From NCBI GenBank assembly GCA_934121905.1, contig CAKOVI010000001.1:24847-88846 (forward strand): a stretch of 64,000 bases of DNA, given 5' to 3'. This stretch comes from an uncultured Clostridia bacterium (GTDB taxonomy: Bacteria > Bacillota > Clostridia > TANB77 > CAG-508). Positions 13,308-14,798 of this stretch are shown here, piece by piece (within the stretch, counting starts at the first letter, position 1; the number at the start of each line of letters is the position of its first letter). The translations under genes and the position numbers were made by a program. Below the pieces are notes generated by a model. That model searched no databases and had not been told where the DNA came from. It saw nothing but the letters and a program-made list of their open reading frames with translations.

Positions 13308-14171
13308 ATGAATAATGAAATAAAGGATGTTTTTGAGGATATAAACAATATATTTATAAACAAATTACAAGAAGCTCGAGAAAAGACAAATGATTCTATA
13401 GAAATTGAATTATTCAATGATTGTATTGATACTTATAAACGTGCATATAGGCTAGTAGATAATAATAGATTATTGGATGGAATAGTTCTAACAAGGAATG
13501 CATTTGAATTAATGATGATGCTATTTGGAATTAGAATAGATGCAAATGTAAGAAAAGAATATTGTAAAGAAGATAGTTATGAGTGTTATCTTGAAAGAAG
13601 AAAGATAAATAAAAAAGCAAAGGATTATTTATCACAAAGTTATTTAAGAAAAATAATATTAAAAAAATATGAGAACATAGAAGAAGATTATAACAAAATA
13701 TATAATGTCTTATCTAAATTTGCTCATCCAACAATTCATAGGAATATGCTAAGATTTTTTGAAAGAGAAAAAACAGATGTCGCTTTATTATATCTTAATG
13801 TAATAATGGTTTTACCAATTTTATTTTTAGAAATACTTTATGAAGAAAATATAATAGTTGATGAAACTTTTCGAGATTTAGCAATATTTAAATATATTAT
13901 AGAAAAGCTTACTTTAATTTATTTTTACAATTATGTGGATAAAGATAAACTAAAAGAGGCAAATAAATATGCATTTTTAGATATTAATAAAGATTATTAT
14001 AATAAGATGGAAGATATAATAAAAAAAGAGCTCAAAGAAATTGAAAAAGAATCAATAGATAATCAAGAAAAATATAAACAAGCAATAGAAAAAGTTTTGT
14101 CAAAAGTTGAATATTATAATATTGCTAAAAAATTAAAAGATTTAAAGCTAATTAATGGAGAGAAAGAATGA
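13308..14171 (+). CDS. Hypothetical helical protein, translationally coupled to hsdR
   Basis: 287 aa. Its ATG directly follows the hsdR stop (TAAATG at 13305..13310). No confident family assignment. Confidence 0.5.
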   Translation: MNNEIKDVFEDINNIFINKLQEAREKTNDSIEIELFNDCIDTYKRAYRLVDNNRLLDGIVLTRNAFELMMMLFGIRIDANVRKEYCKEDSYECYLERRKINKKAKDYLSQSYLRKIILKKYENIEEDYNKIYNVLSKFAHPTIHRNMLRFFEREKTDVALLYLNVIMVLPILFLEILYEENIIVDETFRDLAIFKYIIEKLTLIYFYNYVDKDKLKEANKYAFLDINKDYYNKMEDIIKKELKEIEKESIDNQEKYKQAIEKVLSKVEYYNIAKKLKDLKLINGEKE

Positions 14172-14434
14172 AAATAAAATGTTTGAATTGTAATGAAATT
14201 ATTAAATCAAAATACAGACATGACTTGGTAAGCTGTAAATGTAATAATTGTTATATTGATGGTGGACAAGATTACTTACATTTTGGTGGAAATGATTTTA
14301 ATAAAATCTTAATTATTTTTGATGATGGTACAGAGATATTAGCAAGTGATAAAGAGGAATACAAAAACAAATATGATGAATGGGAAGATAATAGGATAAA
14401 GGAGTTAGCTAATAATGAAAGCATTAACAATTAA
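14168..14434 (+). CDS. Small zinc-ribbon protein
   Basis: 88 aa with CLNC...CKCNNC near the N-terminus. ATGA start/stop overlap with the upstream gene. Confidence 0.45.
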   Translation: MKIKCLNCNEIIKSKYRHDLVSCKCNNCYIDGGQDYLHFGGNDFNKILIIFDDGTEILASDKEEYKNKYDEWEDNRIKELANNESINN

Positions 14435-14798
14435 ACAGCCTTGGGCAACTTTAATAATGCAAGGTGATAAAAGATTTGAATTTAGAAGTTGGCAAACAAA
14501 ATATAGAGGAGATTTATTAATACATGCAGGAAAAGGTATAGATAAAGAAGCAATGAAAAGATTAGAAAAATATCTTCCAAAAGAATTACCATATGGAAAA
14601 ATTTTAGGGAAAGTAAAATTAGTAGATTGTATAAAGATGTCTCCAGAATTCAAAGAATTATTGTTAAAAGAAAATAGAGATATTTATACTAAAAGTTCTT
14701 TTCAAGAAAACTATGGATGGCAAGTGTCAGATGTTGAAGTATTTGAAAATCCAATAGATGTAAAAGGTCATTTAAGTTTATGGGAATATAACATGTAA
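14415..14798 (+). CDS. ASCH (PUA-like) domain protein
   Basis: 127 aa. MKALTIKQPWATLIMQGDKRFEFRSW...LLIHAGK matches the ASCH N-terminal pattern. Overlaps the upstream gene by 20 nt. Confidence 0.7.
   Translation: MKALTIKQPWATLIMQGDKRFEFRSWQTKYRGDLLIHAGKGIDKEAMKRLEKYLPKELPYGKILGKVKLVDCIKMSPEFKELLLKENRDIYTKSSFQENYGWQVSDVEVFENPIDVKGHLSLWEYNM

What the first reader, a model, noticed from the sequence alone, without database searches (positions are those of the whole stretch)
13308..14798. Three genes translationally chained to hsdR: a 287-aa helical protein, a zinc ribbon, and an ASCH (PUA-like) domain protein
The junctions are TAAATG (13305..13310), an ATGA overlap (14168..14171) and a 20-nt overlap (14415..14434), so all three genes are co-translated with hsdR. 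ASCH/PUA-like folds bind modified nucleic-acid bases. A reader of base modification hard-wired to a type I restriction enzyme would be an unusual composite, either modification-dependent back-up restriction or an anti-anti-restriction module.
Basis: partly seen in the sequence, partly recalled or inferred. Interest (0 to 1): 0.55.

Follow-up and report, generated by a model that had tools for sequence, protein, structure and literature searches.

The report
Three separable genes trailing a restriction operon
The three small genes packed behind the type I restriction gene are real and conserved, but they swap in and out independently inside a mobile anti-phage defence island, so they are three separate add-ons and not one machine wired to the restriction enzyme.

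Summary
hsdR (10281-13307) is followed by a 287-aa gene (A), an 88-aa gene (B) and a 127-aa gene (C), with junctions TAAATG, ATGA and a 20-nt overlap. B is Pfam DUF7695, C is Pfam ASCH, and all three are under purifying selection.

The genes lie in a defence island: SLATT/SMODS, type I R-M, AbiL and QatABCD between a phage-type replication module and a conserved 97-aa end gene. Comparison with about 110 related loci shows the three genes assort independently.
- A is one of at least 12 alternative cassettes at the hsdR stop codon. The others include Hachiman, GmrSD and IetAS. Only 18 of 39 loci found by searching with hsdR carry A.
- B also follows four other kinds of restriction or modification cargo, without A.
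- C occurs without hsdR, A or B just upstream of AbiL, is missing or decayed in many A-B loci, and has homologues in 175 phage records.

The parts
7105..8673 (+). hsdM, type I methylase subunit
   Evidence: Its homologues in related loci carry HsdM_N and N6_Mtase. It is 78-99% identical across those loci. The window copy was named by this homology and was not scanned itself.
8606..9844 (+). hsdS, specificity subunit
   Evidence: Its homologues carry Methylase_S. As expected for S subunits it is highly variable, 27-60% identical between loci whose hsdM and hsdR are above 84%.
9884..10258 (+). 124-aa gene of unknown family in a variable slot between hsdS and hsdR, the position PrrC occupies in the prr locus
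   Evidence: It has no Pfam, PADLOC or NCBIfam match. Other loci hold a 256-aa Abi_C protein or unrelated 208-251-aa proteins at this position.
10281..13307 (+). hsdR, type I restriction subunit
   Evidence: PADLOC REase_I 3e-289. Pfam HSDR_N, SWI2_SNF2, T1R_D3-like and T1RH-like_C.
14168..14434 (+). Gene B. An 88-aa DUF7695 protein with a Cys/His-rich beta-rich N-terminal domain and a C-terminal helix. It is the conserved gene just downstream of restriction or modification cargo of five different kinds.
14415..14798 (+). Gene C. A 127-aa stand-alone ASCH-domain protein of a phage-type subfamily, present or absent as a clean cassette.
   Evidence: Pfam ASCH 1e-11. phrog_3193 2e-40. TRIP4 ASCH structures at 5e-10. 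175 phage records. 1613 protein clusters. Contexts. Cassette breakpoints.
14796..14862 (+). Terminator-like hairpin with a U-run after the ASCH stop. Its 3' arm contains the -35 box of the AbiLi promoter.
   Evidence: Folds at -17.6 kcal/mol, z -5.75. Imperfect palindrome 14797-14853. Conserved upstream of AbiLi in every locus aligned that carries AbiLi; L036, which has no AbiL, diverges here.
14844..14872 (+). Best sigma-70-like promoter in 6000-17000 (TTGATA-17-TATAAT), driving AbiLi/AbiLii as a separate transcription unit
   Evidence: Matches 11 of 12 consensus positions. Conserved across loci.
14898..16761 (+). AbiLi (AAA_21) and AbiLii (RloB-like), the next defence module
   Evidence: PADLOC AbiLi 6e-89 and AbiLii 2e-28. 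Pfam AAA_21 and RloB.
16865..21540 (+). QatA-QatB-QatC and a TatD-like DNase, which I read as QatD
   Evidence: PADLOC QatA 5e-97, QatB 2e-7, QatC 2e-99. Pfam TatD_DNase 1.5e-42. QatD is my naming: the fourth gene was not scanned against PADLOC.
21605..21898 (-). 97-aa gene that marks the right end of the island
   Evidence: Homologues (43-95% identical) lie on the minus strand at the right end of the cargo in about 35 related loci, divergent ones included. In L006 and L022 it sits next to TnpV.
3391..7081 (.). Island backbone to the left of the cargo: DUF6076 (minus strand), Phage_rep_org_N, a DnaC/IstB-like ATPase and a 207-aa protein
   Evidence: Pfam. The same order is conserved in related loci.

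Best explanation
The three genes are three independently exchangeable accessory cassettes. They sit compacted at the tail of a type I R-M operon, inside the cargo region of a mobile defence island of uncultured gut Clostridia.

Shown:
- The island has a fixed left backbone (DUF6076, Phage_rep_org_N, DnaC-like, p207) and a fixed right-end gene (p97).
- The cargo between them is a mosaic of defence systems.
- The last few codons of hsdR are a recombination breakpoint. Behind it at least 12 different cassettes alternate.

Inferred, gene A:
- A is a stand-alone candidate abortive-infection-type effector or sensor built on a divergent HEPN-like helical bundle, with the conserved polar set R63/E67/H140/E152.
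- It is translated by reinitiation after HsdR, so it is made whenever the restriction enzyme is made.
- I give roughly 0.4 to A acting autonomously.
- I give roughly 0.25 to A acting as a PrrC-style back-up, released when the R-M complex is inhibited.

Inferred, genes B and C:
- B is a small zinc-binding protein that belongs with the downstream border of restriction or modification cargo in this island family, whatever the enzyme type. It is most likely a nucleic-acid-binding or regulatory factor and not an HsdR partner.
- C is a phage-type ASCH nucleic-acid-binding or hydrolytic protein. It travels as its own cassette, attached either to B on its left or to the AbiL promoter on its right.
For: Context:
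- The window carries SLATT_4, SMODS/AGS_C, type I R-M, AbiLi/ii, QatABC and TatD.
- Backbone and end genes are conserved across loci.

Independent assortment:
- A is present in 18 of 39 hsdR-seeded loci.
- The alternative cassettes at the same site are Hachiman, GmrSD, IetA with an S8 protease, PDC-S18, PDC-M46A, RiboL-PSP HEPN and DUF4268/NucS.
- The breakpoint lies within the last 3-5 codons of hsdR.
- L010 keeps a 24-codon hsdR stub plus A and B behind a type II R-M.
- B occurs without A after four other cargo types.
- C occurs without hsdR, A or B.
- C is cleanly replaced in the alignment and is a pseudogene in L002-5.
- Identities are discordant within single loci. In L022, hsdR is 97%, A 98%, B 76%, C 90% and AbiLi 74% identical to the window.

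Coding reality: dN/dS is 0.10-0.26.

Nature of A:
- The remote homologue P0258 passes the DUF5677 cut-off.
- DUF5677 is reported as enriched in recombinase-linked defence contigs (bioRxiv 10.1101/2025.10.07.681051).

Operon end: a hairpin terminator follows ASCH, and AbiL has its own promoter.
Against: A may be more closely tied to hsdR than the other cassettes.
- A is the only cassette whose ATG abuts the hsdR stop with a poorly spaced SD. The others have their own SD 20-140 nt downstream.
- Divergent A homologues (60% and 40% identical) still lie downstream of unrelated hsdR genes (31% and 46% identical).
- A 34%-identical relative overlaps the stop of a DUF6119 gene, as if A-type proteins work with the large protein encoded upstream.

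Every cargo seen before B is a restriction or modification enzyme. That could mean a functional tie and not mere position.

The HEPN assignment is weak.
- The catalytic Rx4-6H motif is absent.
- Residues 155-179 are hydrophobic enough to be a membrane helix.

A standalone DUF5677 gene was not among the five ORFs reported to protect in the only test I found.

The loci are metagenomic and many are near-duplicates, so the counts overstate independence.
Confidence: 0.65

Rival explanations
1. HsdR, A, B and ASCH form one co-translated system. ASCH reads (or removes) modified bases on phage DNA and so gives the type I enzyme a modification-dependent back-up or an anti-anti-restriction function.
For: - Tight junctions are conserved wherever the genes co-occur.
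- There is one probable transcript ending at the hairpin after ASCH.
- The ASCH assignment is secure and the protein is basic, pI 9.1.
- PUA-superfamily domains, ASCH included, are described as modification sensors of type IV enzymes (PMC12191111).
- BapA, a protein with an ASCH-like fold, strips glucose from glc-5hmC DNA to widen the range of a partner defence enzyme (bioRxiv 10.64898/2026.02.25.707755).
Against: - ASCH is absent or decayed in many hsdR-A-B loci.
- ASCH is present at 86-88% identity with no hsdR, A or B alongside.
- The ASCH family (1613 clusters) is far larger than A (123 clusters) or B (215 clusters).
- ASCH is common in phages.
- About half of the closely related hsdR genes have none of the three genes.
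- No nuclease domain is fused to ASCH.
Confidence: 0.08
2. A alone is a dedicated partner (guard) of the type I enzyme, following PrrC logic. It is made in step with HsdR, kept silent by the R-M complex, and released as a toxic effector when a phage anti-restriction protein disables the complex. B and C are bystanders.
For: - The TAAATG junction with a weak SD implies coupling to HsdR translation.
- A homologues stay downstream of three unrelated hsdR lineages.
- A has a HEPN-like fold, as does the PrrC nuclease domain (PMC3632139).
- R-M operons are known to carry co-expressed accessory genes (PMC3632139).
Against: - 21 of 39 close hsdR relatives lack A and carry autonomous systems in its place.
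- L010 keeps A behind a type II R-M with only an hsdR stub.
- A has no ABC ATPase domain and no Rx4-6H motif.
- No HsdR-A fusion exists among 1.84 billion representative proteins. All hits are 319 aa or shorter.
Confidence: 0.2
3. A is a membrane-acting abortive-infection effector. Its hydrophobic segment 155-179 inserts into the membrane, and the helical N-terminal domain is a sensor or oligomerisation module and not a nuclease.
For: - The Kyte-Doolittle 19-residue mean is 2.39 at 158-176 in the window protein and 2.3-2.7 in its close homologues, flanked by charged residues.
- The HEPN catalytic motif is absent.
- From my own knowledge: Csx28 is a HEPN-like membrane accessory of Cas13b.
Against: - There is only one hydrophobic segment in an otherwise highly charged protein.
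- The confident model (pLDDT 90-94 in this region) packs it inside a bundle.
- Remote homologues have charged residues in the equivalent helix and lower hydropathy, 1.2-1.9.
- No transmembrane predictor was available.
Confidence: 0.12
4. B and C are housekeeping genes of the mobile island itself (regulation, replication or transfer). They act mainly as conserved landmarks between cargo slots at which recombination swaps cassettes, and they have no role in defence.
For: - B keeps its place at the right border of the first cargo slot across five cargo types.
- Recombination breakpoints fall at the 3' end of B and at the conserved AbiL promoter.
- Both have homologues in phages.
- Purifying selection is strong.
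Against: - Neither gene is universal in the island. A-only and cassette-only loci lack both.
- C also occurs in loci where the replication backbone is not visible within the 8-kb flanks.
- Nothing suggests a specific housekeeping activity.
Confidence: 0.2

Closest known systems
PrrC anticodon nuclease in the EcoprrI type Ic R-M locus
   Same: An accessory gene is embedded in and co-expressed with a type I hsd operon. Its effector domain belongs to the HEPN fold class, and the logic is a back-up to restriction (PMC3632139).
   Different: PrrC lies between hsdS and hsdR, has an N-terminal ABC ATPase and has the catalytic HEPN motif. A lies after hsdR, has no NTPase and lacks Rx4-6H. In the window the PrrC-like position is held by a different, unknown 124-aa gene.
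Variable accessory genes of R-M operons: the Rlo ('R-linked') ORFs of Campylobacter jejuni hsd loci, and the AbiL/AbiU1/AbiR association with R-M
   Same: Variable, often uncharacterised genes are co-oriented with hsd genes. RloA/RloB-type genes (AbiLi/AbiLii here) follow the trio. PMC3632139 states that AbiL is often associated with R-M. Miller et al. 2005 is cited there.
   Different: Here the variability is concentrated at one breakpoint in the last codons of hsdR, and the alternatives include complete multi-gene systems. The Rlo comparison is from my own knowledge and was not tested.
Defence hot spots in mobile elements, and serine-recombinase-associated defence contigs of Bacillota
   Same: Fixed backbone genes flank cargo slots in which unrelated defence systems alternate. 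DUF5677 is reported as enriched in such contigs (bioRxiv 10.1101/2025.10.07.681051). TnpV lies beside the end gene in two loci.
   Different: No integrase or recombinase was seen in the window or the flanks, so mobility and element type are inferred. The first slot seems to hold only restriction or modification enzymes.
BapA-Brig3 (an ASCH-like hydrolase that unmasks glucosyl-5hmC for a partner glycosylase), and ASCH amidohydrolases such as YqfB
   Same: A small ASCH-fold protein is encoded in a defence operon as an accessory.
   Different: BapA is at least 252 aa (Q252 was mutated) and is predicted to have two beta-barrels. The window ASCH is a 127-aa single domain, closest to the TRIP4/ASC-1 ASCH. 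It is not tied to one partner. No activity is known for it.
Modification-dependent (type IV) restriction enzymes with PUA-superfamily readers (EVE, SRA, YTH, ASCH)
   Same: They contain a PUA-like domain of the class used as a modified-base sensor (PMC12191111).
   Different: Here ASCH is stand-alone and not obligately paired with any nuclease.
HEPN abortive-infection proteins (AbiV, AbiD/F, AbiA C-terminal domain, LsoA, HEPN toxins)
   Different: There is no sequence-profile link to any HEPN Pfam family or to the canonical-motif HEPN-like proteins next door. The motif is absent, and Foldseek is not significant.

Membership tests
ASCH domain (PF04266) | Profile HMM score above Pfam's gathering cut-off | tested here: met
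   45.8 bits against a cut-off of 21.2, E 1.1e-11, residues 4-88.
ASCH domain (PF04266) | Sequence similarity to an ASCH domain of solved structure, and the GxKxxExR motif | tested here: met
   Matches human TRIP4/ASC-1 ASCH chains at 5e-10. G17-D-K19-R-F-E22-F-R24 can be read directly in the sequence. That this motif defines ASCH is from my own knowledge.
ASCH domain (PF04266) | Binding or hydrolysis of modified bases | not testable with these tools
   Needs biochemistry.
DUF7695 (PF24749) | Profile HMM score above the gathering cut-off | tested here: met
   58.8 bits against a cut-off of 25, residues 2-43. The Cys/His set is invariant.
DUF5677 (PF18928) | Profile HMM score above the gathering cut-off | tested here: not met
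   The window protein scores 20.7 bits against a cut-off of 27.1. The remote homologue P0258 scores 32.3 bits, and 6 of 11 family members give some hit. A is therefore a distant relative and not a member by Pfam's rule.
HEPN superfamily | HEPN four-helix core fold | tested here: inconclusive
HEPN superfamily | Rx4-6H catalytic motif at the start of the last core helix | tested here: not met
   No such motif is conserved. The invariant residues are R63, E67, Y132 and H140.
PrrC-type R-M-coupled anticodon nuclease | Encoded inside a type I hsd operon | tested here: met
   A abuts the hsdR stop.
PrrC-type R-M-coupled anticodon nuclease | N-terminal ABC ATPase plus a catalytic HEPN domain | tested here: not met
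   No NTPase domain and no motif.
PrrC-type R-M-coupled anticodon nuclease | Obligate association with the R-M system | tested here: not met
   18 of 39 hsdR-seeded loci have A. L010 has A with only an hsdR stub.
Modification-dependent restriction enzyme with a PUA-like reader | Reader domain fused to, or strictly paired with, a nuclease | tested here: not met
   ASCH is stand-alone and has varying neighbours.
Type I restriction-modification system | hsdM, hsdS and hsdR all present and intact | tested here: met
   All three ORFs are intact. hsdR was scanned directly. hsdM and hsdS were named from the Pfam families carried by their homologues.
AbiL (AbiLi/AbiLii, RloA/RloB-like) | AAA_21 ATPase followed by an RloB-like protein | tested here: met
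   PADLOC 6e-89 and 2e-28. It has its own promoter. It is not part of the trio.

The most novel reading that the evidence does not exclude
The hsdR-A-B-ASCH transcript is a layered restriction module. ASCH acts as a de-modifying hydrolase, like BapA or the ac4C amidohydrolases, stripping protective groups from phage DNA so that the type I enzyme (or a neighbouring system) can act on it. The DUF7695 zinc protein is a general cofactor of restriction enzymes in this island family. The HEPN-like protein A is the suicide back-up when restriction is blocked.
Probability: 0.08. Interest if true: 0.7.

Novelty: new member of a known kind. Interest (0 to 1): 0.3.

Why it matters
The finding warns against reading tight gene packing in defence islands as evidence of one machine. 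Here start-stop overlaps are conserved, yet the genes assort freely.

It also yields three concrete leads.
- There is a recombination hot spot exactly at the end of a type I hsdR gene, where at least a dozen defence systems alternate in gut Clostridia.
- DUF7695 is a marker gene that follows restriction or modification cargo of five kinds.
- There is a very small HEPN-like family with a non-canonical conserved site.

If any of the three small proteins proves to be a defence or regulatory factor, it would give a function to families that currently have none.

Tried and rejected
- NCBIfam and PADLOC gave nothing for A or B. PADLOC gave only a 26-residue weak match of ASCH to candidate PDC-M11B.
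- PHROGs gave only marginal hits for A and B.
- A profile of the A family against PDB sequences gave only coiled-coil noise.
- hhalign of the A family against the canonical-motif HEPN-like proteins that follow A in other loci, and against the window's own 300-aa RNNFIH protein, showed no relation.
- Foldseek of A against the PDB gave nothing significant. The AlphaFold-database fold library was unavailable.
- Scans of viral contigs for close relatives of B and C found none.
- The large proteins upstream of divergent A homologues (778 aa, 949-aa RelA/SpoT, 574-aa DUF6119) are not related to each other. I therefore dropped the idea of one conserved large partner.
- No tRNA (whole window) and no Rfam family (bases 1-24000) marks an integration site.
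- I considered A as a split-off C-terminal domain of HsdR. I rejected this because no longer protein matches A among 1.84 billion representatives.
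Full report
1. The observation

- hsdR runs 10281-13307 and ends in TAA. The ATG of a 287-aa ORF (A, 13308-14171) follows at once.
- The stop of A overlaps the start of an 88-aa ORF (B, 14168-14434) as ATGA.
- A 127-aa ORF (C, 14415-14798) starts 20 nt before B ends.

Profile searches name two of the three.
- B scores 58.8 bits against DUF7695 (cut-off 25).
- C scores 45.8 bits against ASCH (cut-off 21.2).
- A gives only a sub-threshold match to DUF5677 (20.7 bits, cut-off 27.1).
- C also matches phage family phrog_3193 at 2e-40.

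All three are under purifying selection. Median dN/dS is 0.26, 0.19 and 0.10, against 0.14 for the neighbouring AbiLi gene.

The junction geometry recurs in related loci: a 0-nt gap in 29 of 39, a 4-nt overlap in 26 of 32 and a 20-nt overlap in 19 of 20. Many of those loci are close relatives.

Operon structure:
- No convincing promoter or terminator lies inside 13300-14800.
- A stable hairpin with a U-run follows the ASCH stop (-17.6 kcal/mol, z -5.75).
- One transcript from the hsd genes to ASCH is therefore plausible.
- Translational coupling is most credible for A, whose only SD-like element (AGGA) lies three bases before the ATG. B and C have ordinary SD sites.

2. The surroundings

The region is a defence island in an A+T-rich genome. 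The window is 27% G+C. The closest relatives are all MAGs of uncultured gut Clostridia.

From left to right:
- SLATT_4, then SMODS/AGS_C, then a 300-aa protein.
- DUF6076 on the minus strand, Phage_rep_org_N, a DnaC/IstB-like ATPase and a 207-aa protein.
- hsdM, hsdS, a 124-aa unknown, hsdR, then A, B and C.
- AbiLi/AbiLii behind their own strong promoter.
- QatA-C with a TatD-like DNase.
- A 97-aa minus-strand gene.
- Peptide deformylase and other chromosomal genes.

The replication-type genes on the left and the 97-aa gene on the right are conserved around very different cargo in some 35 related loci. In two of those loci a TnpV gene sits beside the 97-aa gene. This looks like a mobile island with cargo slots. 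No recombinase was seen, so that part is inference.

3. Do the three genes belong with hsdR?

I collected loci in three ways.
- Through homologues of A.
- Through homologues of B and of C.
- Through hsdR itself in metagenome contigs, as a sample not biased by the trio.

I then mapped the window proteins onto all of them.

Gene A
- In A-seeded loci it always lies downstream of hsdR. That includes two loci whose hsdR is only 31% and 46% identical to the window's.
- In the hsdR-seeded sample, 39 loci have hsdR 84-99% identical and enough downstream DNA. Only 18 of them carry A.
- Similarity between loci stops within the last 3-5 codons of hsdR.
- Behind that point at least 12 different cassettes occur.
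- The cassettes include Hachiman (HamA/HamB), GmrSD, IetA with an S8 protease, PDC-S18, PDC-M46A, a RiboL-PSP HEPN protein and DUF4268/NucS-like genes.
- One locus keeps just 24 codons of hsdR, then A and a truncated B, behind a type II R-M.
- A is thus one cargo option at a recombination hot spot.

Gene B
- It follows A in most A-bearing loci.
- It also follows a 729-aa C5 methylase, MmeI plus GmrSD, a 1313-aa Eco57I/ResIII enzyme with a 393-aa gene, and hsdR plus a DUF4268-like gene.
- In each of these cases A is absent.

Gene C
- It is intact in only some A-B loci and is a frameshifted remnant in L002-5.
- In L014, L016 and L024 it is cleanly replaced by about 100 nt of unrelated sequence. 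The left breakpoint is at the 3' end of B and the right breakpoint is at the conserved AbiL hairpin and promoter.
- At 86-88% identity it also stands alone upstream of AbiL, with no hsdR, A or B beside it.
- Its family (1613 clusters) is much larger than those of A (123) and B (215).
- 175 phage records encode relatives.

Identities within single loci are discordant. In L022, hsdR is 97%, A 98%, B 76%, C 90% and AbiLi 74% identical to the window. This is the signature of recombination between modules.

4. What the proteins are

Protein A
- An exhaustive profile search of 1.84 billion representatives found only 30 matches. About eight were full-length, all were 319 aa or shorter, and none was a fusion.
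- One remote member passes the DUF5677 cut-off.
- The model is confident (pLDDT 87) and all-helical.
- The Rx4-6H motif is absent. The residues invariant out to 17-24% identity are R63 and E67 (LRNxFE), Y132 and H140 (SKFxHP), with E152 nearly so.
- Residues 155-179 form one very hydrophobic segment, Kyte-Doolittle 2.39. It may be a buried helix or a membrane helix.
- In three other architectures A (with or without B) is followed by 330-382-aa proteins carrying canonical RNxxxH-type motifs. No profile similarity to A was found.

Protein B
- It has invariant C5, C8, H18, C23, C25 and C28.
- Its model has six short strands and a C-terminal helix.

Protein C
- It is a basic single-domain ASCH protein, closest to the ASCH domain of human TRIP4/ASC-1 (5e-10).

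5. Mechanism

Shown: the mosaic structure, the hot spot at the end of hsdR, the independent assortment, the coding constraint and the operon end.

Inferred: A is a candidate abortive-infection-type effector or sensor that rides on hsdR expression. I give about 0.4 to autonomous action, 0.2-0.25 to a PrrC-like guard role and about 0.1 to a membrane-acting mode.
- For the guard idea: the abutting start codon, the recurrence of A near unrelated hsdR genes, and a distant relative overlapping the stop of a DUF6119 gene.
- Against the guard idea: the A-less hsdR loci and the missing motif.

B belongs to the border of restriction or modification cargo, whatever the enzyme. Its function is unknown, and a regulatory or nucleic-acid-binding role is my guess. 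C is a free-standing ASCH cassette.

A protein with an ASCH-like fold, BapA, removes glucose from glucosyl-5hmC DNA to broaden a partner's immunity, and PUA-family domains serve as sensors in type IV enzymes. But no linkage specific to hsdR supports the idea here.

6. Comparison with what is known, and verdict

Variable accessory genes co-expressed with R-M operons, PrrC as the paradigm, and the association of AbiL with R-M are all established (PMC3632139). Cargo hot spots in mobile elements are also established. DUF5677 has been reported as enriched in recombinase-linked defence contigs, though a single DUF5677 gene was not among the ORFs reported to protect in that test.

The arrangement is therefore a new member of a known kind, built from uncharacterised families. 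Interest is modest.

Noticed in passing
window 13290-13310; L050-L098 at the hsdR 3' end: The last 3-5 codons of this hsdR lineage are a recombination breakpoint. Behind it at least 12 different cassettes alternate, including Hachiman, GmrSD, IetAS, PDC-S18, PDC-M46, RiboL-PSP HEPN, DUF4268/NucS-like genes and gene A. All are co-oriented and start 0-140 nt after the stop.
   Followed up: yes
window 9884-10258: The slot between hsdS and hsdR, where PrrC sits in the prr locus, is also variable. The window has a 124-aa protein with no family. Other loci hold a 256-aa Abi_C protein or unrelated 208-251-aa proteins.
   Followed up: partly
window 21605-21898 (minus strand): A 97-aa gene marks the right end of the cargo region in about 35 related loci, divergent ones included. 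In L006 and L022 it lies beside a TnpV gene, which hints at a Tn4451-like or serine-recombinase element. No recombinase was seen.
   Followed up: partly
window 14796-14872: A 42-nt imperfect palindrome/hairpin with a U-run (-17.6 kcal/mol, z -5.75) overlaps the -35 box of the region's best promoter (TTGATA-17-TATAAT). It is conserved upstream of AbiLi in all related loci. It could be a terminator, an operator, or both.
   Followed up: partly
window 596-3364: SLATT_4 and SMODS/AGS_C genes are followed by a 300-aa protein with an RNNFIH (HEPN-like) motif and a Cys-rich C-terminus. This is a probable second-messenger-type defence module to the left of the island backbone.
   Followed up: no
L001 10831-11979; L010 11223-12215; L011 11260-12246; L056 7900-9039: In three other architectures A (with or without B) is followed by 330-382-aa proteins with canonical HEPN-type motifs (RNPIAH, RNKIAH, RSRLIH). 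They have no Pfam or PADLOC match. They could be catalytic partners of the motif-less protein A.
   Followed up: partly
L024-27, L042-49, L010, L093 (cargo before DUF7695): Every cargo seen directly upstream of the DUF7695 gene is a restriction or modification enzyme: type I, a C5 methylase, MmeI+GmrSD, or Eco57I/ResIII. The first cargo slot of this island family thus seems reserved for restriction-type systems.
   Followed up: partly
L021 7037-9886 and L041 267-1991: Divergent relatives of A lie directly behind a 949-aa RelA/SpoT-domain protein and a 574-aa DUF6119 protein. In the second case stop and start overlap. These may be two-gene systems of unknown function.
   Followed up: no
L012 3755-4132 and 9646-10026: There are two ASCH copies (94% and 82% identical to the window's) in one 11-kb contig. 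The second lies beyond two copies of the 97-aa end gene, which suggests tandem islands.
   Followed up: no
window 13770-13844 (residues 155-179 of A): A single very hydrophobic segment (Kyte-Doolittle 2.39) sits in an otherwise highly charged protein. It is either a membrane helix or a buried core helix. This was not resolved.
   Followed up: partly
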